NCBI GenBank assembly: GCA_013239625.1
Contig: MU057073.1
Coordinates: forward strand, 1,101,426-1,165,425
Reading direction: 5' to 3'
DNA from: Lama guanicoe
Lineage: Eukaryota
DNA: 64,000 nt
The first letter of the stretch is position 1. Every line of letters begins with the position of its first letter. The position numbers and the translations under genes are program-made. Below are positions 4,925 to 44,215 of this stretch, piece by piece. Under the pieces are notes generated by a model, which saw nothing but the letters and a program-made list of their open reading frames with translations, ran no database searches and was not told the origin of the DNA.

Positions 4925-7900
4925 CTGAGGAAGGACCGCAAACAGCTGGTCAGGGCGGGGCCCCCCAGGGCCAAGAAAATGCTTCTCCCCCTCCCAGCTT
5001 CTGGGCCCTTGCCAGGGTAGAGGCAAAGTGGCTGGATTGGGGGCGCAGGGTGGGCAAGGGAGCCAGGGCAGGGCGTGGAGTCTGGGGTCCCACAAGCCTG
5101 CACCTTCCCCGGGTGGGTGGGGGACTCACACTGCTCCAGCCAGCGTCCAGGCTCCACCATCAGCCGGCCCTGGGTCTCTGCCAGCTCCTCGCACAGCAGC
5201 TCGTGCCTCGCGCGCACCTCCCGCAGCCGCTGCTGCCTGCGCTCGGCCAGCCGCAGCTGCGCACTGATGCCCACCGGGCCCTGGGCGGCAGGGGACAGGC
5301 AGGGGTGGGCTTGGGCACGGAGGACAGCTTGCCACCAGGGGCTCCCAGCACCCTTGCCCCCAGCCTCCACCATGAGCCTCCCTCCATCCTCCGGGCCTGG
5401 ACAGGCACGCCCGGGAGCCTCAAAGGTGGGCCAGGATAGGACCTGGGCCCCCACGGGTGAGAGGGCACCATGGTGGGAACGTCCCCACCAGGCACAACTC
5501 AGGGGACAACAGCGGTGGCCTCAGGACCCAAGAGCCATCCACTCTCTGCCCAAGGCACCATCGGGAGACACCATAGGCTCAGGGCCAAGAAGGGCCAATT
5601 CCTACCTTCTCGGGGTCCTGGGAGGGCTGTGGACAAGAGGGGAAGGTGCAGTCAGCAGGCTGCCCGGCCACAGCCCTGGATCCACCCTGCCCTTCAGGGC
5701 CTCCCATCACCAGACAGCTCCAGTCCCCCAGCCGGCTGCCGGCCCTGACCTCGGCCGGGTCCTCCCTGGGGGGAGGACGGTGCCGCTGCAGGCGCTCCAC
5801 GTCATCGATCTCGTACACCTTGATCTCGAAGGGTTCCTTCAGCGAGCCGGGCGGGGGCAGGTCCACCCACTGCCCAGGGAGGCTGGGCTTGCGGCCCAGG
5901 GCCGCGGCATCGGGCAGCGGGGCCGGGATCAGCCGTCGCCGCTGCAGACCTGGAACAGAGAGCCGGGCGCCGAGTGAGCAGAAGCTGCACCCCAACCCCA
6001 GGTCCTACTCCCCGGCCAGGAGCCGCAATCGGAGCCAGGCCAGGGAGACAGCACAGGGGCCCAACTCAGAAGTGCTCAGCCTGGCGCTGGCTGGGAGCCC
6101 TGGCCACCTGTGCCCCGTGGAGCAGACAGCAGACTCGTCCCCTAGTCCCTGAGCCAGCCACCTCTTGCCTGCAGAGCCACACCAGCCTCCCCGAACACTA
6201 GCAGCCTCACAGTCAGCCCTCCAACACCCTAGCTCGTCACACTGTGTCCTAACTCACCACCGTCCCCTGTTCCCACTGCACCCAAGACAGACCCCTGAGC
6301 CAGGCCCACACTGGCACCCCCGCCCACACCTCCCGAGGTCCCCCTCCCTGCTCCTCAGGTGGGCCTCCAGCTTTCCCACCCCAGCCTTGATCCCAGGGTG
6401 CACCTGCCCCTCCTACACATCAGCCCGTGACCTAATCCCCCCAACCACACAGCATGAGAAACAGGCCCACCCTACCCAGGTCCCCAGAGACAAGGGTCCC
6501 GGGCATGGCGGCGGGAGCAGCCCTGCAGGGGGCTTCCAGGCAGCTGGGCACTAGGCCGGGAGGGCAGCGGGTTTGGTGCCCCCACACCAAGTCCCCTCCT
6601 GTGCGGACTCGTCCCTGCCAGCCTTCTCTAACGGGGATGGAGACCAGCCTCTGGGGCAGTGTGTTTATAAACTGTAGAGGGCTGCGCACACCTGCACACT
6701 GAAAAGCCCAGGCCCGTTTGTGAACCTGTCAAGGGCTGCGTGCATCTGGGGTCCGTGAAGGTCATGCCCAGCTGTGCAGGGTCCCCAGTTCTGGGAGCAG
6801 CAGGGGTGCGCCCCACCCACCTGTGGCCCTCTTCTTGGGGGACTTGAGGCTGCGGGCGCGGGCGCCCGGGGAGGCAGCCCCACTATCACTCATGGAGTCA
6901 GGGGCGGAGGAGGCGCTGCCGGTGGCCTCGCTGTCGCGCATCATGCTCTCGTAGCCGCTGCTGCCGCCGCTGTGGCAGAAGAGGGCAGTGCGGCCCATGG
7001 CGGGAGGGAGCTCCCCACTCAGCACGCTGCTGTTGTCACTGCCGTGGCCGCTGCTGTAGCGCTGGGGCCGCCGCGGGGCAGTCACCTTGCTGTAAGGAGA
7101 GGGCAGAGCCGGGCCCGCGGGCGGCCGCTCCTCGGCCACGTTCACGCCACTGTCGTTGCCGCTGTCCGAATGCCGCCGCTGTGGCAGAAGAGCGCAGTGC
7201 GGCCCATGGCGGGAGGGAGCTCCCCACTCAGCACGCTGCTGTTGTCACTGCCGTGGCCGCTGCTGTAGCGCTGGGGCCGCCGCGGGGCAGTCACCTTGCT
7301 GTAAGGAGAGGGCAGAGCCGGGCCCGCGGGCGGCCGCTCCTCGGCCACGTTCACGCCACTGTCGTTGCCGCTGTCCGAGTCGGCCGAGCCCCACGAGGGG
7401 CCGCCTCGGCCTCGGGCTCCGCTGGCCGCCAGCTCGTTGACGCGGCTGTGGGCAGCCCGGAGCGCCTGCTTTGTGCCCATGACAGTGCCCCGGCTGGCTC
7501 TGGCCCCAGCGCCCGGCACCGCCCGGGGGGTGACCCTGGGACCCATCACAGGGCCACCAGAGCTCCTGCCGGCTACAGGGCCCAGCAGCTTCACCGAAGT
7601 ACCAGGAGCCCTGGACCCGCCAGCCACTAGGCTGCGGCCCTTGCTTCCACTGGCGGGGGGCTTGGGGACCCCCACGGCCTTGACCGGGCTGCTCCTACAG
7701 GCAGAAGCAGGCAAGGGTGTGGGGCTGGTGGGAGGCACACCCAACCTAGGCACAGCCCGGGCTGGCCTCCCGGGGCCTTCCCTGGCCTTGCTGCTGTGCA
7801 CCAGGCCCTCACACCGCTCCAGAGATCCGTGGGTGGCAGGACGGCTCACCGCCTCTGGCTTGCCAGCCCGGGATTTCAGGCTGGACGTGGCCCTGGGGAC

Positions 7901-10900: not shown

Positions 10901-13900
10901 CAAGGGCTCGGGGGGCCACAGACACATTGGGCCCCCCTGACCTGCCCTGAGCTGGTTCCCCGGGCTCTGGTCAGGGCCCACCCATGGGCCCACCACTCAC
11001 CTGTAGGGCACATGCTTGGCTCCACTGACCAGCGCCAAGATGACACTGCCCAAGGCTGACAAGGACAGACACAGGGGTCCCCCAGGGGCCTCTCCAGCCC
11101 TACCAGGCACCCCCTCACAGCTGCCCAGGTCGATAAGGTGCAGGCGACTGCGGCCTCCAGACACTGAAACCACAGGGCAGGAGGGTGAAGGCTGGGCCCT
11201 GGGCCCCGGGCCCCGGACTCAGGACCCTGCCGCAGCCCAGCCCAGCCCTGGCTGTACGCACGCCCGACACCTACTTCCCCCCTTGCCGCACTTCTCCACG
11301 CGGTACTGGTAGACGTGCAGTGTGAAGAGCATGTGGGAGCCACACCCGGCGTCCTCGCTGCCACCTGCCCGGCTGGGGCTGCGGGCGGCCAGTGCGGCAT
11401 CCAGGTAGAAGGCCGCCTTCTCAGCTGTGGGTGCTCTCAGCTCGCTCTGGTTCTGGAGCTGCAGGCGGACAGAGGGGACGATGCCTGAGTGGCTCAGGGC
11501 CGAGCCACAGGCCCCTGCCCTCCCCCCCAAGGCCACCCCTGCAGCCCCCAGCTCGCCAGCCCTGCCCGCCGTGTGGTGGCCGTGGTGACAGCGTACCTGC
11601 GCCCCGCAGACAGGGTCCTCCCGCAGGTACACACCCGGAGACTGGGCATCCTGGAGGCTGCCGGAGGCCACCTCGGCCAGCAGGTCCCGCAGGCTCTGGT
11701 CTCGGCCGCACACCTCCACGGCCGAGACGCGGACCGAGAAGCGGGTGCCCGTCCTCTCTTTGCGCTCGTCGATGAGCCGGAAGAGCCAGGAGATGGCACA
11801 GGGCATGACGCCCAGGCTCTGGGGTGAGCTGTCCTTCCCAATCATGGTGTAGGACTTGCCTGGGGGCCACGTGGGGTGACGGGCTCAGCATGACCTGCCC
11901 AGCCAGACCTGGCAGCTGCTTCCCTGGCCCTGCCCAGCCCTCAGGGCCAACCTGGAACCACTGAGACCCCAGGACCCTTCTCTGGTCCGCTCTGCCACCC
12001 ACTGTGTTCTAGGTCCACAGGGTCTCGGCTTCCTCTCCACGAGCCCCCCGCCTCAGGTGCCCACCCACCACCCATATGGGACGTGCCTACACCCCCTGCC
12101 CCACCTGGAAATGGCACCTGGTGACTGCAGAGAGGAAGCACTTACCAAGGCTTGTGTGGCCAAAGGAGAAAACGCAGCCATCTGCTCCCCCGACCACAGA
12201 TTGGAGCACGTCGGCCACTGTCCCCGAGCAGACCTCGGCCTAGGGGGGCCCAGAGTCAGGCAGGCGCCAGGGCCAAGAGGCCACCGCCGGGCCACCCACC
12301 ACGGCTGTCTCATCACACGCAGAGTCAGAGAGTATGTCCACAAGGCAGCCCGGAGGGCACGCAGGACCAAAACTACAGAGATCTCCACGTGTAACAAACG
12401 CACGGACAGGACACACACACAGCATGAGCCGGCCGCACAGGGCTGACAGGCACACGCAGCGCCCGGGCGCACACAGACATGCACACACACAGGTCACACT
12501 GCCACCCCAGGCACAGACCCTGCCGCACATGGGGTCACTGTACACACAGGATGCCGGGGGGAGCATCCTGGGTGAAACCGCCACCCCTCAGAAAGCTTCT
12601 GCAGAGGGTAGGCTCTGAAAACCGGGCGCTTCCCTGGAAAGTCGGCCTGAGAACCAGGCCAGGGACTGAGTGGAGACACCCCAAGGGCAAAGGAGGCTAG
12701 CGAGGAGGGAAACACAGCAGGCCTGCCGGCCTCTGCTCCCAAGCCTCCTGTACCCGGGCCTCCTCTCAGAATCTCCGTCCCCCAGCCTGGCCCAAGAAGG
12801 GATGCAGGTCTGCCCCTCATCCCAGCCCCCGGCCCAAGGACACCACCGCCCTCACCTGCTCCGAGTCCTGGGGGAAGACGGCGTCAAAGGCAAACATCTT
12901 GGGAACGGAAGCCGAGCAGGCGCGTCGGAGCAAAGGAGGTAGCGAGGAGGGAAACACAGCAGGCCTGCCGGCCTCTGCTCCCAAGCCTCCTGTACCCGGG
13001 CCTCCTCTCAGAATCTCCGTCCCCCAGCCTGGCCCAAGAAGGGATGCAGGTCTGCCCCTCATCCCACCGTCCGGAGCCGGGAGCCCAGCCCCCGGCCCAA
13101 GGACACCACCGCCCTCACCTGCTCCGAGTCCTGGGGGAAGACGGCGTCAAAGGCAAACATCTTGGGAACGGAAGCCGAGCAGGCGCGTCGGGGGCCCGAG
13201 CTGCCCGGGGCCCCCACGGCAGGGTCATAGAGGGTCACCTGCTTCTTCCGAGGGTCCACCTTCAGGAAGGATGTGGACTCTGCCGAGCGCTGGGCCCCCT
13301 GTGCCGGCCAGATCCGCAGCATGACCTTCACCTGGGGAGGCAGGCAGAGCGCACATCTGAGCAGCCGCTAATCACAGGGCAGGAGGAGCCCGCGCGAGCT
13401 GGGACAGCGGGCCAGGCCTCAACACGGGATCGCCACCGCAGGAATGCGGGCACCCGCGCCCCAGCTCCAGGCCAGTGCTCATCCCACATGAGGCCAGTGG
13501 GAGGAGAGACCGGCCAGGCGCTGAGCACGTCAGCACAGAACGGGGGGCATGGGAAGGGGGCAAAACAGGGGAGCAGACCCCAGATGCCCCAGTGGGCAGA
13601 GGGACCCCATCGGCCCTCTCGCTGACTCATGAAGAGCCAGCACCGAGGGAGCTGAACCCAAAGACTCAGAGCCTTTGAGAGCAGAGTCACCCCACACAGA
13701 CATACCCCAGTTCCCGGGTGGAGCAGCCATCACTGTGACCCCCCACCCCTGGCTCGAGGAGGGAGGATGTGTGCCCAAGAGAGGTCACCTGTCTTGCCCA
13801 CGTCACAAAGCCTGCACGCGGGTCTCCTGGAATCCCAAACCCCAAATGTGGGGTTGGAGGAGGGAGAAAAGGAGAGACGGGGCATCAGGGCCCCACCCAC

Positions 13901-16900
13901 CCAGAAAGGAAGGCTTGCGCTCTGTCCCTCCCAGCAGGTCCGCCTCTCAGGGCCCCACACCTGCTCCTCTGAGGGTGCCTCCTCCACCCCCGATGAAGGA
14001 AAGGGGCTGCCTCAGAGCCAGGGCCTCCCTGCAACCCCCCAGCTCCCGACCACGGACAGCCAGGCTCAGCACATGATAAGGTGGGCAGGCAGAGGGATGC
14101 GTTCCCTCTCCCCCCAGCCCCACCATATCTCTATCCACCCTCATCTCCTCCAGGAAGCCCCTCCCTCCCAGCTCCCAGCCCTAAGCCAGAGGGCTTCAGG
14201 GCCCTGAGAGCACCTGGGGAGATGGTGGGGAGACCGAGGCCAGGATGTGGGGTCAAGGCAGAGGAGGGAGGGGGCAGGGCCAAATGGGGCTCATCCGAGC
14301 TCAGGGGCCAGCAGGTGACCATGCAGCCTCAGCTCCTATGTGTCCTCAAAACACAAGGACAGACAGAAGACCTGCCCGGACCCCCACTCACATTCTTGCC
14401 CAGCTCCCTGGGGCTAGACCACCAACCCTGATGCCCTCAAGGGAACAGAAGGCTCAGTGGGGAGGGGAGCGAGGAACCGAGACACAAGAGCCCCGTGCAA
14501 GCTGCACTACCAGCACCCCAAAACCTGCATGGAGAACGAACACCCTGTGCATCCTGTGGACGGCCAAGGGGCCGAGTTCTGCCTCGGGTGAGCCACCGTG
14601 AGTGAGCACCCCTCCTGGGAGAAGGCGCCAGACTCCAGTTTCTGCAGGAAGACACCACGCTCCACTCTCCGGCGACATCTCCGATTTCTCCACCACAGTG
14701 CAAATCAAGTTACCAGGCTCATCTCAGAGCCAATATTTTTCACGGATTTAATTGTAAGTGACAGATACATAGCGCCGGCAAAATTGGTTTACCATGGGTA
14801 GTTCGCACGAGGCGCCATACTCCCCTTCAGCATGTGGCAAACTGACGCGCAAAATCGCTCCTAGTAAGGAGCGCACGGTCCTCCGGGGAGACTCGCAAAG
14901 AAACACTTTTCTGTTGAGCTCCCCCGAACCTGGGCTCCATTAGGCAAGAATCGATTCTTTCATTCCCCGACAACATGAACAAAACTATTTCACTTCCAAA
15001 CGCGGCTGCCAAGCAGACAAAAACGTGCACTTCTCAGTAATTTTTAGCCTTTTTTTTTCCAGCGTGAACTCCTGGCCACTTCAGGAGCCAAATGGGTTCT
15101 GCAGATTGGAGAGCGTTCCTCGCAGGGAGAAGCCTCGAGAAGCCACTCTTGCCACCCGCTCTGCTGATGGCTGCGGGACTGGGGACCCACCGCCCAAGGG
15201 AGGGGACCTGCGCCGGCCCCACGCTGCGCTGCCCGCCCTAGCTAAACGCCCGAGTCATTGTCTGTGAGAATCCTTCCATTACCGCGGGGAAATGACGGGG
15301 TTTTGCGCTACTCGAGCACGTCTCAATGTTCTGATACTGCAAAGCCCCACTGCATAGCTTTCCAGGGAGGGGAAAAAAGAAAAAACACATTTTGCATAAA
15401 AGGGGGGCTTCCACTCCTAGGAGGTGGCCCCGGCTGGAGAGGGGGGAGGGGCTGCGAGGGGGCAGCCTTCTTCAATACCACAGGATGATGAATTACCTTA
15501 AGTGGCACATTAATGTCAGGAATTGAGGGTAATCTAACTTCTTTTCTCTGACAATATTAAATGCCTTTCAGGAGGCATTTCTGACTGTGTTATTCGTGCA
15601 GATAACACACAGGGAGCTGGGGAGGGGGCCCTGGGGTGGGCAGTGAGAGGATGGGTGGCCACATGCTCCTTGCCTGGGAAGGGTGGGGGCGTGGGGGCGG
15701 TGGGGGACCAGGGCAGAGGGGGTGGTCTGCCACTGAGAGCGGGAGGAGCCCCCACCCTGGAATGCTTGGGCCTGGTCCCAGGGGGAGGTGGTGGAGGCCT
15801 ACTGGGGCCCCAAGTCACGTAGCAGCTGCAAGAAAGCAGGGGCCTGTGCTGGAAGGGTCCTTAACCCTCAGCCTCCCACCCCCGACCCAACCCAGACGCT
15901 TAGAGCCCCTCTCCCACAGCCAGTTCGCTGGCCCCAGTTTGCAGGTTCCTCCCTCCGGCCCCTGCACTCCCACACCCACATCCCAGGCAGGGCCCAGATT
16001 CCCCATTGCAGCAAGTTCCCAGGGGACCCTGATGCCATTCAGTTTGTCTGGGGCCACAAGGGTCTCTGTCTCAGGGCCTGGGAGCCCAGGAGGCCCCTTG
16101 TAGGGGTAACAGGGGTAGGGAAGGCTTCTTGGAACAGGGAAGCCTGGCCGAGTCACAAAAGTCCAGCAGGCCCCACTGTGAGGAGAGAGAAGTCCCAGAC
16201 AGAGGGGCTGCCCTTCGGGGGCTGTGCATAGAGGACAGAGCTCAAGCCCAGGCAGGGTACCCTCTGCAAATGCATCAGCCCCTCTCCAGACTAGGAGCAG
16301 AAGCCCCCTGGAGGGTATCCTAGGTGGCAGGACAGACTGAACCCAGGGGAACATGGAACCCACCCCACCACTCTGCGGGGGGTGAGCCTCTGGGCGCTGG
16401 AGAGGCCGGGCCCAACGCACGGGTGGGCAGCCAGGTCAGGGACCACTCTAAACCCTGCCACTCTCTGGGAGGCACCTGGGAGGGGCCAGTGGCTGGCAGA
16501 GTGGACAGAAGATCAGGGAAAAGCACTCAGGTGCACACTTAGGTTCGGGGCCCAATCCTCACCCCAGAGCCATGCGGACCTGGCGACAGGCCAGCCCCTT
16601 GGTGCCTCAGTCTCCTCGCCCTCAATGGGCACAGAGCCCCCTCACCAATGTGCTCACACAGATCCGCACACACAGGACCCTAACCCAGGTTTGGGGCGCA
16701 GTTACAAGCAACTCAGACGGGGCCAGCACGGAAATCTCGTCTCAGCACAAGGCCACAGGAGTCAGGGGCCGGCCAGCCTGTTCCCTGACTGGGCCTCAGT
16801 TTCCCCACCTGAACCCTGTGGCAGTCTAATTCACTGATCACACGCCCCCCTCTGACTGTGTCAGGCCGTGGCTGGGGTCTGCCCAGAACTGAAGGGCCCA

Positions 16901-19900
16901 GGGGTCCCACCCATGCCCTCAGCCCCACCCTCCAACAGAGACCAGGCAAAGGGGCTCCTGCAGTCAGATCCCGACCCTTAGTCCCCAGGAGTCCTGGCTG
17001 ACCTGATCCACACTGAGACCAGCACATGTGCCTGGGACCCCCACCCATGTCTCCACCACAGTCTCCCAGGCTCCCTGCCACCCGTGGAGCCGTTAGGTAG
17101 GCCTGGGCTTCAGTCACCCCACCCGGACCTGGGGGAAGGAAGCAGGGCCCCTCCATCTCTCGATCGCCCTCCCTGCACCCGCTCAGACACCCTCAGCCTC
17201 ATCCCAGGGTCGCCCCAAGTCAGGGTAGGGCCTACCTTTCCGGTGCTGCTGGAGTTGTCCTTGGTCTTCGAGGCGGCCCTGAGCAGGCAGGGGGGCACGG
17301 GGGGCGGCCACAGCTGCAGGACCCCGCTGAAGTCCGTGGGGTAGATGGAGGCTCCGCGGGTGGTAGGGGGTGGTGGGGGGTGGGGCTTCCTGGGCTTGGA
17401 GGCCAGGCTGAGCTTCTGGGCCGCCCTGGGGAGGGGAGGAGCAGGGGGGCGCACTCAGAGAGGTCCTGCCACCTGCCCTCCCCCAAATGCAGCTGTGCAG
17501 TCTGCACTTCACTTCCCGCAGCCAAGTAGGGGCACCCAGGCTGGGGCTGCCACATGCAGGCCAGGCGACAAGGGGCCCAGGCAGACACCAGACCCCAGGG
17601 CTATGCCCTTCCCTGCACCCTGCACTGAGGACATCCTCCTCCCACCAATGTCTACCTGCCCCATGTCCCCCACCCAGCAGCCAGGGCAGGACAGCACATT
17701 CTGAGGTCTGTCTCTCACAGGCTGTGTGACCCAGGCATGGTGACTTAGTCTCTCTGTGCCTCGGTTTCCTCATCTCTAACATAGGATGACCTGGCCACCA
17801 GAGGCCCTCGTGTGCGGCCCTGATGAGCTAATACATTCAAGACACCCAGTGCAGGCCTCCAGCACAGGTGACACTAATAGTTAAGAACACACAGCGGGCC
17901 TGGGTCCACACCTGGGCTCTAGCCACTGTGCGCAGACTTCAGCCCCTGCCCGACTTCCCAGTGAAAGGGGCTGGAGTCCAGGACAGGTGTCAGCTCAGAG
18001 CTGGAAGCACCTGCCCACCAGCCAGGGTGGCCCCTCCCACCAGTCGTGCGGCGCCCACTCCCCCTTCTCCCAAGCCCCTCAGGCCTATTTTCTCCTCCTC
18101 AACAGGACCTCAAGAGAAGGGCCTGCACCCGCCAGGGCCGCGCAGCCCCCTCAGCCCACCTCCCACTTGGCAAGAGCTACCGCCGGCGTTTTGCTTAACT
18201 CCTCTCATCTTTAATAGGAGTTGTCTTTTAAGAGACCCCAGGGACGGCTTCCCTCCTAGCGAGGTGTCATCATGGAAAATAAAAGTAATCTATGGTGTGG
18301 GGCGGACCCTTAAGGGAGCAGTGGCGGCGGCTGGTGCGTGGCCAGCGGGGCGGGGGGCACAGAGAGGGCACAAGGGTCCCATGAGTGGAACCCACAAGCT
18401 GCCCAGACCCCTGGAGCCGGGGACCCTAAGCCAGGATCATGGGTCCCCCGGCCACTAGCAGATGCTACCCTGGTTCCTGCCTGAGCCCACCTGCCTGAGT
18501 GGACTTTGTAAACCTGAAACCTCCTTGCTCCCTGGCCCCAGGATCACACAGCAGGCAGGATGGGGCTGACAGCGTCACCCAGCCACAGGGTGAAAGGTTT
18601 GGCCCAGGGAGCTCTGCCGCACCAAGTCGCAGCAAGGCCATCTTAGGGGCCTGGGGAGACTCAGGCTGGGGGCCGGGGGAGCTGGGGCCGTTTTATCAGA
18701 GCCTCAGCTCCTGGGGCTCCCCCCACCCACCCCACCCCTAGCCTCGGCCTGCTGCCCTGGGTTACATCACAGCTTCCTGCCAACCACCCCCATGGGAAGC
18801 AACTACAAGCAGACTTAGAGGACGTCAGAGTCCAGCAGGCAGCCGCAACCCCACTGCCCTGCACTGCCCAGGGCTGGAGCCGCCAGGGAGGGCAGAGCGC
18901 CTCGGGGATAACCTGGCGGGGCGGGCTGTGGCGGGCACAACCAGGACAGCTGTGCCTGTGAAAGTGGAGGAGGTCCTGTGGACGCTCCCATTTCTACGTG
19001 GTGCAGTGGTGCTGCTCCCAGGACTCGGAGAAGGACAGCACACTGGGCTGCCTCACACCAGCCTGCTCTGCAGAGTGCAGGCCAGGCCCTCAGGGTGACC
19101 GGATAGTCAGCAGACAGTCATGGCCGAGGCGTGCCCCACCCCGGAGGGCTCCCTGCTCCTCCCTAGGCTGGGCGGGGCCACCCCGGGAGGTGGAGGCTGG
19201 GGGTGAGGGGACCTGAACCACAACCCCCAAGGCTCAAGAGGACTCAGAGGCCAAGAGGACCTGTGGCCAATGGAGAAGGAGTTGGGGGAGGCCAGGGGGA
19301 CACCAGGCTGCAGAAGCCACAATCAGAGGGTCACACATGCAGCCGCAGACCCTCCCAGGAGCCAGTTTCCAGCACAGTCCTCACCCCATCCTCCCGTCAC
19401 CCTCAGGGCCCCAGCAGCGGAGTATGGGGAGGTGTCCTTCCCCCCAGACACGCCCAGGTCTAGCCTGGACAGGAGCTAGGACCAGAGCCTCTGAGGTCCC
19501 GCCAACCCAGGAGGCTGGAATGTTACTGGCCATGGTCTGACCTAACCCAGGGTGACCCCGCCTCCCTTCCTGGCCCAGGCTCAGCCCCTGTGGGACCCGG
19601 AGCTGAGAAGCTGCGCCCGGCCTGCCCAGCCCTCCAGGTCTCTGTGCTCACAGGCCTGCCTCACGGCATGACTCAAAGGCCCCAGGACAGTGCTCTGTCC
19701 TTTGATGAAATCCAGGCCCTCCAACACCAGGACCAGCCCATCAGCCACCCACCACTGCAGCTCAGCCCACACCGCCTGCAGGGGCGCTCCGGGCCGGCCC
19801 GCCCTGAAGGGCCCAGCCTTCTGGGAGCACAGACCTGGTTTCTGAGCAGTGGGGATGGGGAGGAAGTGACACCGGGCTTCACAGAGGCTCAGAGAACACA

Positions 19901-22900
19901 CAGGCACCACCCTCAGGACCAGACACCCACTGCATTGTTGGGGAGCTGGCGGGGGGGGGGTCAAGGCGGGACCTGCAGGGGGAGTGTGGGAGAATCTGAG
20001 TGCTCCGGCTCTGAAGGGAAGACTTGAAGAAGCAGGCACTTCACCTGCACACACAGCTCTCCTCACGCTCTGTGAACATCTCCCCTGGGAAGCCCGCCCG
20101 ATGCCCCCACGCGGGGCTTCCCCAGACCCTGTGCCTCCCGCTACCACAGGAAGCACTCCCTGTCCTGAGACACAGGTTTACAAGGCTGTGCCCCCACCGG
20201 GCGGGGGCTCCAGAGGGCAGACGTTTGCCGAGCCCAGGCCCAGGACACAGGGGCACTCAGGAGGAGGCCGTGGGCGAATGAGTGACCGGCTCCCCCACCG
20301 GCCGCTCCCTGTCCTCCCAGGGGCCTCTCCCCGGCTCACTGGCCCTGGTCACTGATTCACAGAAACAGAAGGGGAAATATTTGCCATTTTACAAAGAAAG
20401 ACGGCCTTTTCCAAACAAGATGGTCATTTCACAGGCAGTTGGCCTTGATGGTAAGGCCCTTAATTACCCCGAGGAGACACACAGGCCCGTTTGGATGTGT
20501 TGGGGGGTCAGTTACACCAACCCAGGGTTTCCTAACTGGGCGGCGATGAGGCTGGTGGACTGGGCCACAAGCCACGCCCCTATCCCCACCCTGAGGAGCT
20601 GTAACCCCCAGGCCCTGAGATCCCCCAGGATCTGCCCATCAGGGTCCAGAAGGCAGGGCTGCTAAGGAGGCCTAGACCCCCAAGGCCAAGGCCCAAGGTC
20701 CCAGCAGCCCTGACCCTTGCCCCTTGCCCCTTGCCCCCTGCCATGGCCAGCATTTTCCACATCACCAGGGAACAGGCTATGCGGCTTCCTCGGCCCCACC
20801 CTGCCAGGGAGGGCCCCCTCTCCACAGAGCCCCCCTACCCATGTGCCTCTGGGCAGCACCCACTGTGGTTCTGGGCCTCTGCTGGGTGCCTGGCATCAGG
20901 GCAGATGGGGGGCAGGGGATCCACAGAGGCTGCAATGCAGCGGGCAGGTGGGGGGTGCCCACGAGTGCAGGGGGTATCCTGGCACCCAAAGGAAACCCCA
21001 GCGCTCCCCCGACCCTGTGCCTGCCGAGCAGACCCTCAACATTGCTCCGAGACCATGCAGATTCAGGGGTCCAGGAGGTGACCCCTCCGCAAAGAAAGGC
21101 CCAGAAGGGCAGGCAGGAGAGCGAGCTAATGGAGGCATCTGGGGGAGGGGAGAGGGGAGACTGCAGAAACAGGAAGGATGGGGGAGTGGGAGGACGCGGG
21201 AAGGGGGAGTCAAGGTCGCCAGAGCCTCCTGAGAAAACGTAATTACAGCAGCGGCCCGGCCTTTCCAGGACTCTGGTAGGGGCTGGCACACTGCTGCCGC
21301 TGCCACGCCCTAGCTGCCCACCCAGACCCAGCAAAAGGGCGCGGGGCGCTGGGCCTTACTCCCCTGCTCCACACCCCATGAGCGTTAGCAAGACCTTGGC
21401 CACCAAACCACACATGGAATCACTCCCTGCCCGGGCTGCCCCACACAGGGTGAGGAGCCGGGGGGTGCAGAAGGCTCAGGAAGGCCCAGGAAGGCCCGAG
21501 GCCGGTGCCAGACCACAGGGAATGCTCGGGGACCAGTGGAGAACCCAGCTTCTAACCTCGTCCTATTCTGCCTCCATCTGGCAAACACCAGACTCCTCCT
21601 CAACTCTCAAAGCGCAACTCCGTGTCCCACGGCCCTGAGGACAACACTGTTCTCTGCCCCTTCACAGATTCCACCCCCTTACACCCAGCTAACCAGAAAC
21701 TTCTGAGGGGCAGGCATGGGCGAGGGACAGCTTTACCCCCGGGTCCCTGGCAAGGGGTGGATCTGGGGACACAGAACATACACTCAGCTCACGCCTGAGA
21801 CCCTCCCTGCCCCGCACAGGATCCAGCAGCTCCACGTCTCTTGGGGACTCTGGACAAGCCCCTTCCCTCTCTGAGCCATAGCCTCTCCCCACAAAACACA
21901 GGAGTGGATGCACAGCTGAGAGCACCCAGATCCCACCCTGGTGGTTAAGGGTGCAACCGCCCCGAAGAGCAGAGGGTCTCGGGCCTAAATCAGGCACGTG
22001 CTCGGGACGGTGTTTCCGGCTGGAACACCCATCCCTCGAACGGCCTTTGACCCTTCAGGGAGCCGCTGTGATTCGGGGCGTCCAACAGGCTGGAAATAAT
22101 GGCAGCTGGCAGTGCAGCCCCCGTAAAACCTGCCTCCGCCGTCCCGGCCCCCGGCCCCGGCCGAAGCGCCTGTTCCTATGGTAACTTCCCAAGGGCAGCC
22201 GGGGCGGCCTTGCTCAGCTGGAACAAAAGGCAGCCCGGCTCCGGGGCCGCGGGGTCGCTAATGAGCCAGCGTGGCCCCCACGCGGGACCACAGGAGCTGG
22301 TCTTCCTCCTTCTCAGACGGTCTCAGGCTTGAAATCCTCCTGCAAGCACCACCTGATGGAGGGTGGCCAAGGCCGAAAGCCCCGAGGGAGAGACTAGCTG
22401 GGGCAGGACACTCCCAGATGCCAGGTGTGCCTGCCCTGGTCTCTTACACAGGGGCCCCTAGGCCCACAAGGTAGGCTCCCACCCACCCCACAGCCAGAGA
22501 ATCCCAGCCGGGCTCTCTGCGCCTAACTGGGGCAGTGAGCCCCCAGACAAGCTGACAAGGCACCCTGTCCCCACAGGGGCCGCTAATGGGACAGCGACCC
22601 GCGCCAGGCCCACCATCACCGCTCATTAACCCCCGTCACACCCTGTGATCCTCACACCATGGTGGGGGGAGCCCCGCCTCAGGTCCCCAGTACCCAAGGG
22701 CACTACAGGGAGGGGCTTGAGCCGGGGAAGAGACCCCCCCCCACTTCCCACCTCTGCACCTTGCTCACAGAGTTCCCTGCCTGACAGGCCTCACCAGCCA
22801 ACAGGTGCCTGCAGGGCCGTGGCTAGGCATCCCGGAGGCGTGGAGGGAGCAAACCCCAGGCTGCAGTCAGCCCCAGCCCCGGAGCTCCGGACTGAGACCA

Positions 22901-25900: not shown

Positions 25901-28900
25901 CAGCAGGGGACAGAGCTGGGGGCTCGCCCCACAGCCCCTCCGCCCACTCCCATGGGGCCTGAGCCATCCCACCGTCTCAGGCGGGCATCACTACCTCCAG
26001 CCAGAATGCTCCGGCACCACCAGCAACGGTGCAGGCCCCTCAGCACGCCTGCGGCCGGCCGCCCCCCGGGCACTGACCTGTCTCGGGGGTCCCGCACGCA
26101 CCTCGGCTCCGCCGTCCCACGAGCTGCCGAGACACGGCTCCGGCCATCGGGACGGCCGCTGCCGATTCCTGCCAGAAGCAGAGCCCAGGCATGCCAAAAG
26201 AAGCCAGGGGGGCGGGGGGGACGGCGAGAGGGAAGACCACAACACGGGGACAGAAGAGAGGGGGCGAGGGGAGGGCAGGCGGGCGGCCAAACAGAAAACG
26301 TGATGGAGGTGCCAGAGCAGCAACGAAAGAAAAGCATGAAGAGAGGAGAGCGTGAGGTGGGCCGCGCCACCGTCCCCGGGGAAGCCCCTGCCAGAGGCTC
26401 CTGACCTCAGCCGGTGCCCGGGGGGCCCAGAGTGGGCGCCAGGGTTCCACAGAGCATGGTTTGGGAAACACCAGACTAACCCATTTCTTAGGAACCCTCC
26501 GGGCCTGAATTCCACGTCTGAAAGATCCCGGCAGGTGAAGAACAGTGTCCACCTGCTCCTCGGGAGAAACACCTCACTGCGGGCTATTTCATGCCGAGAG
26601 GTGGGGGGGCCAGAAGGGGCAGGAGGCTGAGGGGTCTCACAGACACGGTCTCAGCCCTGCAGAGGGCATGGGGGGCATCGCTCAGGGGGCATGTGCCAGA
26701 CACCAGGGTCTCCTCGAAGCTCCGCCTAGTCCCCCAGAGGCCCCCAGGCCAGGAATGTCCTTCCCCTGCAGGCGCCAGTCACAGGAACAGCACCCCAGCA
26801 GCTCCCCTGAAGTGTGGCCATCCTCTCCTGAGGCCCAGAGGGGGCACCAACAGCGGGTCGGGTCAGAGAGACAGGCCAGAATACAAAGCTCCCTCCACCC
26901 CTGCCACGTCCCTGAGGACGGGTGGACACCCACCAGGGCCCCCGCCAGTGCTCACAGGAAGTGGGGGGGGCAGCAGGAGCAACATCCCCAAGCTGGTGTC
27001 ACCCAAACTCCATGGACAGACAGAAACCGTGGCTCCACCAAAATGACCTCACCTCCCACTCAAAGCAGCATGCAGCACCTCCTCCAGGAAGCCCTCCATC
27101 CTCCCTGTCCAGGCCGAGCCTCTGCTGCCGCAGACCCCATGGCAGGCTGGGAACCCTCTGCTCCAGGTCCTCCTCCCTGGACTGTGAGCCCTGAGACCCT
27201 GGGCAGGGCCTGGCCTGTGTCTGCACGACTAGGGAAGGTTTGCACAAGTCTCCACTCACCCAGACCTGGGGCAGCTCCTTTCACTGTTTCCCGCAGTCCC
27301 ATCCTCAGCTGCCCCAGGCTGTGCTACCTCTAGCCTACTGCGGGGTCAGGAGGACAAAGCCTTAATGTCATCTGTAAAGTGAGTGCAGGTGTCCTACGGA
27401 CATCTGACAGGCACCCTGTCGACCTGGGGGAGACACCACGGTTCACAGCTGTGTCCCCGTGAAGCAGGCGGAGGCAGAGCACCTGGGGTGGCCCCACGCT
27501 CTCAGGGCAGCCAGGGAGGGTGACAGGCCACAGTCCCACTCCCGTGGGCACCCACGTCCTCCATGGTGGCAGAGCCGCCTCTACCGGACAGTCTGGAAGG
27601 CAACCGCTCGACGGTCCCAGCTGGGACGCTTCCCCAGATACTCGGGAGGTGAATGACCCGGAAAGGGCCGAGCTCTGTGCTCCCGGACGGGGAAGTGGAC
27701 TGCGGCCTGAATTAGGCCAGGGCAGGCCGAGGGCTGCTCCACCCAGACACCAGGCTCTCTAGCTGGCCACGCCCACAGAAGGACCCACGGGGCCAGCTCC
27801 CAGCCAGAGCACCCGGAATGTTCCAGGCCCACGCCTCCCACCCCAGCAGCCCAGATCCATGCTCGCCTGGAAACAGTCACATGCCAGGCCCGCCAGGGGG
27901 CTGTGGTGGCGACTCGCAGCACGCCTCTCCAGAAGCGTGTCGTTCTAGGGCCTAACACGCAGTGTTCCCACATTCCAGGCCCGCCTCTAATGATCAACGG
28001 CCTGGTTCAGGGGAAACCACCTCATGTGGGTCCAAAAGTTCTATTTATGGTTTAAGTAATGTCTCCATCAATCGCCAGGACTGTTGTCTCATCATAGTCC
28101 ATCACCACCCGCCCGAACGCGATCAGTGCACATAAAACCAGGAGGGAGCCTTGAATGCTCACGTGTTATGGTGAGCTGGCAGCCAGTAGGGCTGCCCAGC
28201 AAAAGGCCCGTGACCCCACCAGGCACACAGAGGCAGACAGGCCACCAGCCTGTCCTCTCCAGCTCACACCCCTCTTCTGCCTCCCGGGACCCTCAGGGCC
28301 AAGACCAACCCCTCTCTCTACCTGGTGTCTAAGGCCCCCTGGCTATTCCCAGTGGCCTCCTGTGCCCCCATCACATCTCCCGCTGGGCCCACTGTCTCTG
28401 CCACTTCCCTCCAGGCCCGGCTCAATGCCACCTCCTCCAGGAAGCCGCCCAGCTCTCTAGAGCTGCCTCCTCACCTCTGCTTTCCCCCTTCCACCGACCC
28501 CGCAGGCGCATTCTTCCCAGGCAGCCCAGCTCTCAGGCCAGGAGGCACCACAGGACTGGCACAGCAGAGGCTGGCCTCCCCCTTCTTGGCCTCGCCCTAG
28601 GACTTAGCAAACAGAGGAGCTGGAAGCAGAAAAGCCACCCATAGGGTGCATTGTCACACCAGGTGGAGGCCAGGTCAGATCCAGAAGTTCTTCCCAGGGG
28701 TGCCCTGGGCACCCCAAGCTACTGAGGGTCGGGGAGGCTCCAAAGACAGGGCACCCTCAGAGGGGCCAGCCCCAGCAAGGCCACACTTGAGATGGCAACA
28801 TTCAGCCTGCAAACCACAGCCCCTTCAGAGGGGCCGGCAAGTCCAGAGGCGGGGGCGGGCCAGGGGACTCATGGGACTTTGCCGCAGCAGCTGGGGGCCC

Positions 28901-31900
28901 TCGCCGTGCCTCCACCCCCACAGCCCTCGGGCACAGAGACCACAGGAGAGGACTGCTGAGGCTCTATTTCCGAGACACTCACCGGGCAAGTTTGTGCAGC
29001 TGACTCTGCAGTGACTAGAAAGGCTTCCACGGCCATCTACCTATCTCTCTGCCCCGGGGCCCCACGGGGGACAGACGGCGCAGCAGGAGCTTCTCCAAGC
29101 AGCCACAAACGCCTGTGCAGCTCCACCGCTGGGTCCCACCTGGCCCAGTACCCTACCGCAGCTCTACCACCAGGGTCACACCTCCAGGGAGACCTACAGG
29201 GTTCATACCTCCAGGCCTCCACACAGACCCTTCCCTCCGCTTGGAGGGTCCTTTCTATTTCATTTGCCTGGAGAACCCTATGCTGGGCACTGCTAGGCCC
29301 TCAGCAAGCAGATGGGGGCAGCCGGGGGCACGAAACCCCAGGAGAAGGCATCCCTCAATCGTGCAAGAGCTTCTGGGGAAAGGTCCTACTGGGACCACCC
29401 CAGCACAGCTACCCCCACGCACCACCAAGCCAGAACCAACGCCCTCCAGTGTCCCAGGAAACCCCGCTCCAAAAACCCGTCCTCTCCTGACCCCCGACCC
29501 TGGTGCCCCTTCTCCTGGATGGAAAACTGGGGGACACAGGGGACACCTGGGAGAGACCCCCACCAGCAGAACTCTGTAAGCAGCAGGCACCGGGCGCCTG
29601 GCACCGGGCCCCAGCCCCACCCCCCAGAGCTCGTCTCAGACCGCCGGGCCCTGCCTGGGCACACCCAGCCCGGGTCCATGGCACCTCAGGACCCACCGGT
29701 GGCCAGAGCTGGCTCCACGGAGGCCATGCCACTGCTGTGGGTGACACTCTGGTAGGCCTGAGGAGGGGAGCCCTGGAGAGTGGGGAAGGCAGTCCGCAGT
29801 CACCTGGAAAGAGGTGGCTTCTGAGGGGCCAAGCCTGTGCAGGAGCGAGCACACAGTTCGCACCACCTGCGGGCCTCCCACTACATGCCAGGCTGTGTCA
29901 CTTGTCCACAGGGCAGGGCCATGTCACCCAGGTCTGCCTGTGCTCCGGGCAAGAGAGCCTGGCCAGGGAGGGACCAGGAGGAGATGTTCCCTCTACTCCA
30001 ACCCTGAGGATGAGGGTCTGATCTCATCCTGGGAGCCCACGGGGCCCTTGTGTCAGCCCACAGCACTTTCCGTGGTCTCCGAGTGGCCACAACCATCCTC
30101 ACCCACGTGCCTGTGCTGCGTGGCAGCAACGCTCCCAGGGACACGAGAGGACCCTGCCCACCAGCGACCTGGCAGGTGGACTTGACCTGGGCCTTAGGAG
30201 TGTCTGCAGCCCCCTTGCTTTAAGGGGAGCCATGCTGCAGGGCACCCATTGAGCTCAGTGGGTGCAGACGTGGACTCAGCATGTCCAGGGCACTCACCAG
30301 GCATGACGGCGGCAGGAAGCTGTTGACCCGCGAGACGCTCCACATGCCGTCCAGGCACTGCTGAGCTTGGATGGTGACCGTGCTCAGGGCCCCGCCCAAG
30401 CCAGCAGGCGCCACCGACACCTGGACACTGGGCCCGGACGGCCAGGCCAGCCCCTTTCTCCGGTCTGGTCCCACTCGGCCCGGCTGCCTCCCCACCAGGC
30501 CCGCCGGCGCTGGTACCTCCCTCAGGCTGGTGGCAGCGCCAGGGCTGGGGGGCGCGAGGCCGGAGCCTCCATGAGGGGCGTCCAGCTCTTCGCGGCTGGC
30601 AGGGGCCTGCAGCAGCCGCAGGGCCTCCCGCGTGAGCTGGTTCAGGTGTGTGGCACAGACGTCACAGCGGCGCTCAGCCTCCGGGTGACACGCAGGCAGA
30701 GCCCCAGGTGCCGGCAACTTGTCGAGAAGCAGAGCAGAGAGACATGGATCCTGGGAGGACAAGGGACAGAGGTGGTCAGTGCCCGGGCACCAGGACCCAC
30801 CCCCCTCCCTGACGCTGGGCCGGCCCACACAGCGGCCACTACGTAATCCAGAACTGGTTAATATGCCCCAAACGGTGTCATCTGCAGGCACCCAGCAGGA
30901 AAAGAGCCACTGGGGCTTAACAGGGAGGCCCGCAGTGCCCTGGACAACTGCCCCCCTCCTCCAGCCACCATTCCCGTGCTTGCCTGCGGCCAATAAGGCA
31001 TCCATCTGCACGGCCCCCAGCAACTGGGCCACAGCAGCCAGGCCACATGGCCAAGCAGCAGCCCAGGAGCTGGCGGAAGGGGCCCATCTATGGTGGGCTG
31101 AGGGCCCCAGTTGAAAGCAACGTCGCTTCCAAAGCCCGTAATGGGGGGCTGGCGGGCTGGAGACCCTCTCCCTGCCTTTGCGGCGTCTCCAGCCCTGGTC
31201 GGGATTGGGAGGAAATGTAAACGGACCCCCAGGAGCCAGGCTGTGTGATAGGACTGCAGGGGTGAGCAGGTGGCCCAGGTCCACAGGAAGACGGAGGCCC
31301 GAGCACAGCTGGCGGGAGGCAGGAGGCAAGTCTCAATGGCCCCCACACTCCGCTGCAGACATGGAGTTGGCTGCTGGGGCCTATGCTGCCTGGTGGAGGC
31401 CCCTGCAGCCCACCCCCCTGCCCTGTACTGAGGGGGACACGGGGTCTCCGTAACCATGAGCCTGCTGTCTTAAGAGGGCTAAGAACAGAAGCCAAGAGGT
31501 CCAGGAGGGATTCCTGGAAGAGGGGACACCTCTAGAAAAAAAGGGGAGGCAGAGGGAACCAATCCTCAGAAGGAACCTCACTGGAGGGAAGCTATCAAAA
31601 GTCACATTCCCAGGGCCCATCCCCTACCCTCAACCCCAACAACAGGCTCTGCCTCAGCCCCTCCCCTGGCAGCCCCTCAGCATACTTGCCCTTTCCCGAG
31701 GGCAAGCCCAAACTACAGATGCTTGGCCAGGACACCCCCTTGACGGAGCAGCGGCCCATCCTGGACTTGCCACAAATCCTCCCTCCCCAGCCACAAAGCA
31801 TCCCCTGCTCAATGGCTGGCCACACTGGCCCCAAAGGACACTGGGCACATCCAGATGCCCTGCTGGCCACAAAAGGGACTGCAACCTCCCCAAACGCATC

Positions 31901-34900
31901 CCTCCTTCAGACTCGGAAGCCAAAGGCACCACTAAAAAGGGGCAGCCCATTCATCCCGCCCGGGCTCCCCGAGCCTGGCCTGTGGCCAGCCTGACCGGTG
32001 TCCACAGACGCCAAGGGAGAGCTCCAGTGGGTGCCGGCTGTGACAGGGAGGCCTGGCTGTGAGGGGACACTGCTCAGCTCTTGTGTCCCCGGGACAGGCA
32101 GACCCCGCAGATACTTCGGATTCAGTCCAGATCACCATGACAAAGCGAGTGTTGAAATAAAGTGAATCACGTGAATTCTTTGGCGTCACAACTATAAAAG
32201 TTATGCTCACACAATACTGTAGTCTAGTAAGTGTGCAAGAACATCGCGTCTTAAAAAATTTTAACACTAAAAAACAGCATCGGTTGAAACATAACGCTGC
32301 TGGGAAAATGGCACCGACAGACCGGCTCAAAGCAGGGCTGCCCCAAATCCTCGGGCTGTGAGAAGCGCACAGTAAAGCAAAGCACGGCGAAACCAGGGGC
32401 CCGGGCCGCCCCACGCGCCCCAGGCAGACCAGGTCGGATGAAAGCGTGGCCCGGCCAGGCCGCGCCTTGCCGCTGCCTGATGTACGGGCTTTCCTCCGGT
32501 GGGGGCTGGGGGCCTCTGAAGTGCCCGGCGTGTCTGGTCCCAATTAGCGGACACCCCCACACCCTCCTGCTCCCCTGTGGGAAATTCACTGCGGACCCCA
32601 GGGAGCCCTGCGGAGGTGGGGGGCAGGCACGGGACACGCTGCGGGAACCCCACCCGGGTCGCCCACGGGCCACAGGTGGAATGCAGACGCCCTGCCCCCG
32701 CCACGCAGGGCTCAGACAGGCCTGCTGCCACTCCATCATCCCTGCCTGTTTTCCAGGCCCAGCTCTGATTATCCTGGTTTTTCCACTCAGCGGGAGGCAG
32801 CTAATGGTGGGCTGGTGTGAGGGGAAGGAAGTGCTGCCTGCTACAGCCATTAACCCGACTTGAAAGGCGGCCCAGACCCCGCCCGGCCCCCAGGCCCCAC
32901 AGCCCATTGTTCTGGGGCCTCTGCCTGTCTTGGGGACCTTGGGCCTCTGGGGAGCCACTCCCTCCAGGAAGCCGGGAGTGCAAGGGATGGGGGGGCTCCT
33001 GACTGACCTGGGCCCACACCAGAACCAGACCCCCACCACACCCCCAGAGCTGCCCCTGCCCACCCCCCTCCCCCAGCTCGTCAGGCAGAGTTCAGGTGGC
33101 GGCTGTCAGGGAGGCCTCAGCCACCCGCCCGCCCACCACCCAGGCCTAGGGCTCTGAGCATCCAAGCCCCATGTGGGAACAGCAGGGGTCTGCTCTGAGG
33201 AGGGGGAGCCCTCCAAGCTCAAGCACTCCTCTCACAGGGAGACAAGCCCAGGACCGCCTGATCACCAGCTCAGCAAGCCAGGTGCAGGGGCTTACAAGCC
33301 CGTGGGCCTCCAGGCCATGGTCTCCCCTGAGTCCCACTTCACAAGCTCCCAGAAGGTTCGGGGCCCCAACACACCCGGGCCCCACCCCACGGCCAAAGCC
33401 TACTTTGGGAGCCAAGCACCCCTCCCAGCACTGGCAGCCAAGCTCACCTCTTGGGGGACCCTCACCACCTTCACTGCGGAGGTGACGATGCTGCAGGCCC
33501 AGCAGATCCCCCAGGCCTAGGGGTCTCCGGGTGTGGCGGGGGCCACCTCTCCAATTTCTGCCTGGTATCACACACCTGAGATGGCAGAGGCCGGCCAGGA
33601 GGAGAGACCCACCTGGGGTGACCACACAGAGACTGCAGTGGGCCCTGAGCCCCTCAGGCAGGCCAGGCAGCAGAGGCTGGGCCAGCTCGGGGGCCAGGAA
33701 CAGGGCAGCGGCAAGGAACGCTCACTGTGGTCGTCCAGTCAGAACCCCGCCCCACAGCCTGCAGACCAGCAAGCCCTGGGCAAGACAGACCTAGAGTCAG
33801 GGTCCAGCACCCTGGCCCAGCATTCAGGGCTCCAGGGAGGGGGGCTTCTCCCAGGATGGGCACCCTGGGCCCCAGAAGGTAAGGGACGAGAGCATCTTCC
33901 ACACCACCTGCTGCCCCTCCCCAAGCGCAAGCCAACAACCCTCAGACCCCAGCACAGAGGGCAGCTGGGGAAGGCCCAGGAGGAACAAGTCGCCCTTCCC
34001 TAAGGCCAGTGCCCTCTCCCAGCCGTGGGACAGCTCCTGGCAGCTGCAGGGAGGGCTCAAGCCCCCAAGAGGTCACGGCCCCAGTTTCCAGAATTTTAAT
34101 CCCCGAAAGCCCCAGCCACCATGAGGCCTAGAGCCCACCCCTCCCGTCCAGAGCCCAGCGCCTTTAGACAGGAATCACCCTGCTGCAAAATAGTACTTTT
34201 AATTTCCTCTTTATGGTCTAATTAAACAGATATTTTACTTGCATTTGGAAAACGTTTTTCTTAATTTGATTCAATTTAGCACTGCATACCCAGCACACCA
34301 CCTGGGTTTTCGGGGGCCTTCCCCCACTTAAGAATGATGGCTTTTTATCTTCCGTCGTGTTTCTGGGATCTCTGAGTTACTTTAAGTAATCCTTCTATTT
34401 TCTCCTAAGAGGGAGCCCTAGAGGGGCTTCACCGGGGGAGCTGCCCCACCGTCACCACCAGGGGAGGCTTCCCCAGGGTCCAGGAAGGCCAGGCTCACCC
34501 CTGGGGCAGGGCGGGAGCTGACCAGACCCCCCGCAGAGGCTTCCATGGGAGAAAGTGAGAAGGGGGTCTACTCCCCAATTCAGAAAAGCCCCCAGACCTC
34601 AGGGCTGTGAGAAGACCCTCTCTGAGCCCCCATCATCCTGTCTTTCAAAAGGGGGCCCCAGCACCCACTGGCAGGGTGGCTGGGAGAGCGCCCAGGACCA
34701 GAGCCCAGCCTGGAGGAGCGCGTGAGGCCAGCCACACTGTCAGGAGTGGCCTGCAGGCAGCTGAGCGCGTCCAGTCCTGCCTTCTCTCCACAAACAAAGC
34801 GCACTGGGCCCTGACCCCGGGCAGCCACGTTTCCGGAGTTGACAACAGGTCCAGGAAGGGACCCCGGCTGCCGGGCTGGGCGCTGCCCTCTCAGGCTGAC

Positions 34901-43989: not shown

Positions 43990-44215
43990 GGCCAGGACGT
44001 GGGAAGGACTTGGCGGTCGCTTCGGGGCCACTCGGGCTCTCCGGGGCGCCGTGGCTACGTGATCCTGTCCGGGGACGCCCCCATGACCCGGCCGGCCACT
44101 CCGAAGTTCGCGGCCCGGACGAGCGGCAGAGACCGCGCGGCGGTGGCGGCGGCGGCGGCGGCGGTCGGTCGGTCGCGCTGGGAGGCGAGGGCGGGGCCGG
44201 GGCGGGGCCGGGGAC

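What the first reader, a model, noticed from the sequence alone, without database searches (positions are those of the whole stretch)
14714..15350. Candidate internal promoter and first exon producing a motor-first short KIF26A
Seen: intron 5 contains a block unlike its flanks (lower GC, CpGs retained). On the minus strand it reads GGCGCT-ATG TAT CTG TCA CTT ACA ATT AAA TCC GTG AAA AAT ATT GGC TCT GAG ATG AGC CTG|GTAACT. This phase-0 donor would join exon 6 to give [27 protein letters not shown], omitting the 374 aa of exons 1-5 including both CxxC motifs. Upstream are several short ATG-initiated uORFs (e.g. [14 protein letters not shown], in frame and stopping just before the ATG) and a 7-bp hairpin CGCTCCT-AGTA-AGGAGCG (14856-14873). 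Inference: a translationally controlled short isoform from a third promoter.
Basis: partly seen in the sequence, partly recalled or inferred. Interest (0 to 1): 0.7.

Follow-up and report, generated by a model that had tools for sequence, protein, structure and literature searches.

The report
CpG island inside KIF26A intron 5
An intron of the brain- and gut-development gene KIF26A in this camel-family genome holds a real 0.9-kb CpG island that likely acts as a regulatory element, while the proposed extra first exon, its short upstream reading frames and its hairpin look no better than chance and match no recorded protein.

Summary
The letters are as described, but only the composition beats chance. 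The block is a CpG island: 14551-15440, GC 0.55, CpG o/e 0.74. Only 2 of 535 intronic windows reach the finding's o/e of 0.85. The exon-like parts are ordinary. An ATG-frame-donor this good arises in 23% of shuffles and 15 times in introns 2-5; the hairpin in 19%; the 8 upstream ATGs match expectation, 6.6 +/- 2.0. The donor is weaker than the five real donors scored, and an out-of-frame uORF overlaps the start codon. None of 334 KIF26A/B proteins carries the 19-residue start, including all 10 in the camelid cluster. The same gene models do record an intron-3 exon (6 mammal species), a ferret cassette 21 nt past the proposed donor, and the family's old short form, which keeps the conserved exon 5. 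No RNA reads or orthologous DNA were examined, so the exon is unsupported, not disproved. Best reading: an intragenic CpG-island regulatory element (0.55). The scan's earlier notes held nothing on KIF26A isoforms.

The parts
14551..15440 (.). Intragenic CpG island in KIF26A intron 5 (890 nt, GC 0.55, CpG o/e 0.74); the real feature
   Evidence: contrast with flanks and rank among 535 intronic windows
14714..14770 (-). 19-codon ATG-initiated frame proposed as coding first exon; present but chance-level and without a protein match
14708..14716 (-). Donor-like site CTG|GTAACT, phase 0, non-consensus +5; score 78.9 versus 83.2-92.5 for five real donors
   Evidence: matrix recalled from the literature
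14789..14833 (-). In-frame 14-codon uORF (second ATG at 14818 in a strong context), ending 18 nt before the proposed start
14748..14795 (-). Out-of-frame 15-codon uORF that overlaps the proposed start codon
14827..14976 (-). 49-codon upstream ORF (second ATG at 14940)
14856..14873 (.). 7-bp inverted repeat with 4-nt loop; chance level
15190..15238 (-). Two GC-box hexamers (starting 15238 and 15195); no TATA box in 14600-15600 on either strand
   Evidence: consensus motifs recalled; matches are not evidence of function
14609..14692 (-). Stretch matching an internal cassette exon in the ferret RefSeq model KIF26A isoform X2 (P0314), starting 21 nt past the proposed donor
   Evidence: score 65; 0 of 1000 shuffles reach it
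13119..13331 (-). KIF26A exon 6; opens with the first strand of the kinesin fold and holds an internal Met at codon 4
17236..17425 (-). KIF26A exon 5; as conserved as exon 6, and lost in the proposed isoform

Best explanation
The block is a 0.9-kb CpG island inside KIF26A intron 5 that likely works as a tissue-restricted regulatory element (enhancer-type, with at most weak transcription of its own), and the 19-codon frame, uORFs and hairpin inside it are likely incidental. Shown: the island composition and the lack of the TpG/CpA excess seen in the flanks. Inferred, step 1: its CpGs were spared because the DNA stays unmethylated in the germ line and/or is under selection. Inferred, step 2: bound transcription factors keep it open and it feeds the main KIF26A promoter island about 28 kb upstream (43261-46800). 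Inferred, step 3: because it is lower in GC than its flanks it holds more ATG, stop and GT words, and so yields exon-like strings and occasional lineage-specific exons, as in the ferret model.
For: Island criteria met. CpG o/e in the top 2 of 535 intronic windows; TpG/CpA o/e 1.05 versus 1.33-1.39. A similar low-GC, CpG-retaining block sits in intron 2 (31801-32788), so the gene has more than one such element. Exon-like parts are at chance level. 0 of 334 proteins resemble the 19-mer before exon 6 (best local score 22, self 89). Of 354 proteins with an exon-6 start, 312 are preceded by exon 5, 20 have under 5 residues upstream, and 22 have other sequence, none like the 19-mer. Internal control: the same gene models do record minor exons at 26185-26076 (11 proteins, 6 mammal species) and 18250-18185 (naked mole-rat), and at 14692-14609 (ferret). 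PMC8873577 (parts 1-2 of 5 read) describes intragenic islands acting as enhancers, alternative promoters or triggers of intronic polyadenylation.
Against: No chromatin, CAGE, read or cross-species DNA evidence was obtained, so 'enhancer-type' is inferred from composition alone. PMC2944787 (abstract) says many orphan islands do initiate transcription. The protein census is partial: best 120 of 410, 407 and 187 hits, and at most 15 members listed per cluster (15 of 136, 69, 56, 36, 33, 32, 31, 26, 26). The tblastn control missed the ferret cassette at E 0.01, so it is weak for short diverged peptides. The donor is canonical and in the right phase, and a non-TATA island with GC boxes fits a promoter too.
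Confidence: 0.55

Rival explanations
1. Internal promoter whose transcript splices to exon 6 through this or a neighbouring donor, but makes little or none of the 19-residue form. uORFs block the 14770 start, so any protein would begin at the Met in codon 17 of the frame or at the exon-6 Met, the latter clipping the first strand of the kinesin fold.
For: Island composition. Five donor-like sites score 72 or more in 14600-15560, one stronger (85.3 at 15497) than the candidate. 33 held proteins start at the exon-6 Met, among them human EAW81860.1, mouse EDL18598.1, a rat model, RefSeq models of Komodo dragon and a ground parrot, and a 1489-aa ORF on a 5848-nt Logan contig.
Against: The same exon-6 Met start occurs in KIF26B models (P0493, P0503, P0506-P0508) and in many short Logan ORFs, which points to truncated models rather than a KIF26A intron-5 promoter. 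No mammalian KIF26A RefSeq (XP_) model among those read starts there. No read evidence.
Confidence: 0.22
2. One reading: a coding alternative first exon spliced at 14714 gives a kinesin-fold-first KIF26A of about 1498 aa (1853 - 374 + 19, from P0341), under uORF control.
For: ATG with G at -3, open frame, canonical phase-0 donor inside a CpG island. The extension would keep the first strand of the fold whole. The family does use an internal short first exon: 20 MDWK-type proteins.
Against: Chance level 0.23 per block; donor score 78.9 is below five real donors; uATGs neither enriched nor depleted. An overlapping out-of-frame uORF and an 18-nt gap after the in-frame uORF argue against efficient initiation (inference from general translation rules). 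0 of 334 proteins and 0 of 10 camelid records. It would drop exon 5, where 29 of 63 columns are 90% or more identical across 68 KIF26A/B sequences against 28 of 71 in exon 6 and 0 of 64 in exon 4; the known short form keeps exon 5.
Confidence: 0.15
3. The island promotes intronic polyadenylation or a terminal exon, giving an exon 1-5 transcript without the kinesin fold.
For: One ATTAAA on the sense strand at 14752. GC as low as the gene's own 3' UTR block (0.54). Active intragenic islands are linked to intronic polyadenylation (PMC8873577).
Against: A single hexamer, with no chance test run for it. The review places such termination upstream of the island. No 3'-end data were examined.
Confidence: 0.04
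4. A neutral compositional outlier with no function.
For: No direct functional datum was obtained; one other such block exists in the gene.
Against: The missing TpG/CpA excess requires long-term protection from methylation decay, or selection. The island's edge is still alignable to ferret at the peptide level.
Confidence: 0.04

Closest known systems
Intragenic (orphan) CpG islands of mammals (PMC8873577, parts 1-2 of 5 read; PMC2944787, abstract and outline)
   Same: Over 200 bp, GC over 50%, CpG o/e over 0.6, inside a host gene and away from its annotated starts.
   Different: Lower GC than its flanks rather than higher, with modest CpG density (5.5 per 100 bp versus 9.6 at the promoter island). 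Methylation state and activity are unknown.
MDWK-type short isoform of KIF26A/KIF26B (teleost KIF26A RefSeq isoforms such as XP_030247472.1; KIF26B records of two colobine monkeys, P0498 and P0505)
   Same: A short N-terminus replaces the N-terminal region and its CxxC/tri-helical part (PF23081 is absent from P0196).
   Different: It joins exon 5, not exon 6, so it keeps the conserved exon-5 segment. It is recorded in 20 held proteins, while the candidate is in none. No ATG-Asp-Trp start was found in the window's intron 4.
SHANK3 intragenic-island promoter giving a shorter transcript (as summarised in PMC8873577; the original paper was not read)
   Different: There methylation and transcripts were measured; here neither was.
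Ferret KIF26A isoform X2 cassette exon (P0314) and naked mole-rat isoform X2 cassette (P0012)
   Same: Predicted exons drawn from CpG-retaining intronic blocks of KIF26A; the ferret one lies at the edge of this island.
   Different: Internal cassettes, each seen in one species among those read; the ferret one begins downstream of the proposed donor and does not include the 19 codons.

Membership tests
CpG island (Gardiner-Garden definition as quoted in PMC8873577) | Length over 200 bp, GC over 50%, CpG o/e over 0.6 | tested here: met
   890 nt, 0.55, 0.74
CpG island (biochemical) | Unmethylated, CXXC-captured, H3K4me3 | not testable with these tools
   Indirect only: TpG/CpA o/e 1.05 versus 1.33-1.39 in flanks
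Alternative coding first exon | Canonical donor in phase with the next exon | tested here: met
   GT donor, phase 0; exon 6 phase 0
Alternative coding first exon | ATG-frame-donor arrangement better than chance | tested here: not met
   P=0.23 in 1000 shuffles; 15 such donors in introns 2-5; score below 5 of 5 real donors
Alternative coding first exon | Encoded N-terminus recorded or conserved in relatives | tested here: not met
   0 of 334 proteins; 0 of 10 camelid records; census partial
Alternative coding first exon | Spliced reads to exon 6 | not tested
Alternative promoter | Transcription start site (CAGE, 5'-RACE) | not testable with these tools
   No TATA box; two GC boxes, not diagnostic
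Alternative coding first exon | ATG, frame and donor conserved in orthologous DNA | tested here: inconclusive
   The metagenome scan gave 8 loci at 40-49% identity and no mammalian ortholog; the own-genome search gave only the site itself
uORF-controlled mRNA leader | uORF number or layout departs from chance | tested here: not met
   8 uATG versus 6.6 +/- 2.0; hairpin P=0.19
uORF-controlled mRNA leader | Ribosome occupancy and conserved uORFs | not testable with these tools
   No Ribo-seq or alignments on hand
Enhancer | H3K4me1/H3K27ac, eRNA, reporter activity, contact with the promoter | not testable with these tools
   Inferred from composition only
MDWK-type short KIF26 isoform | Short first exon joined to exon 5, exon 5 retained | tested here: not met
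   The candidate lies in intron 5 and skips exon 5

The most novel reading that the evidence does not exclude
Mammals have an unannotated CpG-island promoter in KIF26A intron 5 whose first exon adds 19 residues directly onto the kinesin fold. The resulting protein of about 1500 aa would lack the CxxC/tri-helical region and the conserved exon-5 segment, be held down by uORFs, and survive knock-outs aimed at exons 3-4.
Probability: 0.15. Interest if true: 0.6.

Novelty: new member of a known kind. Interest (0 to 1): 0.27.

Why it matters
KIF26A is a non-motor kinesin whose biallelic loss causes brain malformations and gut dysmotility (PMC10585591, PMC13510395; passages read). An intronic regulatory island is a place to look for non-coding variants, but it is an ordinary kind of element. 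If the short isoform were real it would matter more. The human iPSC knock-outs in PMC10585591 were frameshifts in exons 3 and 4, which would spare it, while the three truncating patient alleles seen in the passages read (codons 1148, 1332 and 1363) would hit both forms. It would also be a second, independent way of shortening kinesin-11 proteins besides the MDWK form.

Tried and rejected
Reads: six RNA runs (3 studies) hold 0.06-0.19 of the sampled words of 14690-15350. Orthologous DNA: the metagenome scan with exon 6 gave 8 loci of 40-49% identity and nothing mammalian; the own-genome DNA search found only the site itself, with no paralogous copy at E <= 0.001. The 19-codon frame is too short for the protein searches, so it was tested indirectly, by reading what precedes exon 6 in 543 held proteins. 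Folding: two AlphaFold2 models of relatives (P0255, mean pLDDT 48.9; P0475, 50.6) gave the central exon-5 helix pLDDT 65-70 amid low-confidence sequence and exon 6 mostly 25-48. They are too weak to show that exon 5 packs on the fold, and were not used as support. No solved KIF26 structure was among the best 60 of 94 PDB matches. Proteins starting at the exon-6 Met were considered as evidence of an intron-5 promoter and judged weak, because KIF26B models and short genomic ORFs show the same start. Weak tblastn hits of fish or seal proteins to intronic blocks (P0488, P0480, P0287; E 0.003-0.009) were treated as chance and dropped from the intron-3 count. Literature: listings (titles and abstract openings) showed no paper on an intron-5 KIF26A promoter or isoform; passages of PMC8327856, PMC6166001 and PMC11608842 had nothing on isoforms. 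No supplements were read. Earlier scan notes held nothing on this element.

Full report
Setting. The window holds KIF26A on the minus strand. Exon 6 is 98.6% identical to alpaca RefSeq proteins and 94-96% to Camelus, so the host is a camelid. Exon 5 is 17425-17236 and exon 6 is 13331-13119. Exon 6 opens with the residues that align to the start of the kinesin fold of KIF3B and are predicted as its first strand in a fish relative. KIF26A binds microtubules but does not hydrolyse ATP (PMC10585591, passage), so 'motor-first' means fold-first.

Observation. The 374 residues and two CxxC motifs are right for alpaca isoform X2, and Pfam places the tri-helical PF23081 domain at residues 67-142. The composition is a real outlier. 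14714-15350 has GC 0.54, CpG o/e 0.85 and TpG/CpA o/e 1.05; the flanks have 0.65, 0.21-0.30 and 1.33-1.39. Of 535 overlapping windows in introns 2-5, 2 reach this o/e. A sliding call gives one island of 890 nt, 14551-15440 (GC 0.55, o/e 0.74). One similar block lies in intron 2. Four runs of a study not flagged as the source hold all sampled words of the stretch, so it is real DNA.

Chance tests (1000 dinucleotide shuffles; donor matrix recalled). An ATG followed by 8-80 open codons and a phase-0 donor at least this good occurs in 23% of shuffles of the block. Fifteen distinct donors in introns 2-5 pass the same test (9, 3, 1 and 2). The candidate scores 78.9; five real donors score 83.2-92.5. 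Two further rows (exon 4 and the intron-3 exon) were mis-registered in my script and are left out. A 7-bp hairpin occurs in 19% of shuffles. Eight ATGs lie in 14771-15350 against 6.6 +/- 2.0 expected: neither enriched, nor depleted as a used leader tends to be (general knowledge). One uORF (14795-14748) overlaps the proposed start out of frame, the in-frame one ends 18 nt before it, and the ATG at 14818 has a stronger context than the one at 14770. If the start site lay upstream of these, initiation at 14770 would likely be poor. If it lay just before 14770, there would be no uORFs to control anything.

Protein census. Three searches (best 120 of 410, 407 and 187 hits) and three cluster look-ups gave 543 proteins. 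Of these, 354 show the exon-6 start: 312 are preceded by exon 5, 20 by fewer than 5 residues, and 22 by something else. The 19-mer's best local score against the 40 residues before exon 6 in 334 proteins is 22, against a self score of 89. The camelid cluster was read whole, 10 of 10 (8 RefSeq and 2 GenBank models), and all have exon 5 before exon 6. Large clusters were listed only in part (15 of 136 for primates, 15 of 69, 15 of 56 and so on), so absence is not proven.

Internal controls. The same gene models do record minor exons elsewhere. Eleven proteins of six species (mangabey, gibbon, squirrel monkey, marmoset, cheetah, field mouse) match an exon at 26185-26076 in intron 3; in three of them it is the first coding exon. 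A naked mole-rat model uses 18250-18185 in intron 4. A ferret model has a 36-residue cassette between exons 5 and 6 whose first 28 residues match 14692-14609 (score 65; 0 of 1000 shuffles). That shows the island's edge is alignable across orders and can be exonised, but by an acceptor 21 nt past the proposed donor, without the 19 codons. Against reading too much into this control: tblastn at E 0.01 did not recover the ferret cassette.

What the family does. Twenty held proteins (teleost KIF26A, and KIF26B of two colobine monkeys) begin with a short MDWK-type start joined to exon 5. Exon 5 is as conserved as exon 6: 29 of 63 versus 28 of 71 columns at 90% or more identity over 68 sequences, with 0 of 64 in exon 4. 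The established short form therefore keeps the segment that the proposed isoform would lose. Two folds were too uncertain to show that this segment packs on the kinesin fold. Thirty-three proteins start at the exon-6 Met, including human, mouse and rat GenBank models, two sauropsid RefSeq models and one long Logan ORF. These could reflect a non-coding leader from intron 5, but KIF26B models and short ORFs show the same start, so truncation is the simpler reading.

Mechanism. Shown: an island spared from CpG decay. Inferred: it is kept unmethylated or under selection because transcription factors bind there, and it regulates the host gene in some tissues. Its lower GC makes ATG, stop and GT words commoner than in the flanks, which explains the exon-like look. 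PMC8873577 (parts 1-2 of 5 read) lists enhancer, alternative promoter and intronic polyadenylation as the known roles of such islands. PMC2944787 (abstract) reports that many initiate transcription.

Limits. No paper on such an isoform appeared in the listings. PMC10585591 mentions only 'both' transcript variants listed on NCBI. Supplements were not read and annotation browsers were not available, so an existing CAGE or GENCODE record cannot be excluded.

Verdict. A real but ordinary intragenic CpG island; the coding first exon is unsupported. Interest 0.27.

Noticed in passing
window 26185-26076 (minus), CpG island 25921-26440: Intron-3 exon matched by 11 proteins of 6 mammal species; first coding exon in mangabey, gibbon and squirrel-monkey models, cassette in others. 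A better-supported internal start for KIF26A than the finding. Mouse X2 (P0381) and Artibeus X2 (P0008) also start in exon 4.
   Followed up: partly
window 6985-7169 = 7194-7378: Exact 185-nt tandem duplication at the end of the large coding exon. Alpaca RefSeq proteins align through 9838-7172 without it, so it is likely an assembly artefact.
   Followed up: partly
window 12698-12824 = 12940-13066 and 12821-12928 = 13084-13191: Exact duplications after exon 6 that repeat the exon's 3' half and donor; likely an assembly artefact, otherwise a second donor copy without its acceptor.
   Followed up: partly
window 18250-18185 (minus), intron 4: Low-GC block used as a cassette in the naked mole-rat model P0012, 82% identical over 22 residues: probably another conserved element.
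   Followed up: no
window 31801-32788, intron 2: Second low-GC, CpG-retaining block like the finding; candidate regulatory element.
   Followed up: no
window 46324-46187 and 43989 onward (minus): Two alternative first coding exons inside one 3.5-kb promoter island (43261-46800), both seen in mammalian and, for the upstream one, fish gene models.
   Followed up: partly
proteins P0196, P0198, P0211, P0220, P0498, P0505 and others: An MDWK-type short start shared by teleost KIF26A and primate KIF26B suggests an internal start older than the two paralogs. None was seen among mammalian KIF26A proteins read, and none in this window's intron 4: possibly lost in mammals.
   Followed up: partly
window 21881-22360, intron 4: Further CpG-rich intronic stretch (GC 0.64, o/e 0.63) with no protein match noted.
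   Followed up: no
window 63715-63629 (minus): Exon of the neighbouring 60-kDa lysophospholipase/asparaginase gene, seen through a fused mole-rat gene model (P0125).
   Followed up: no
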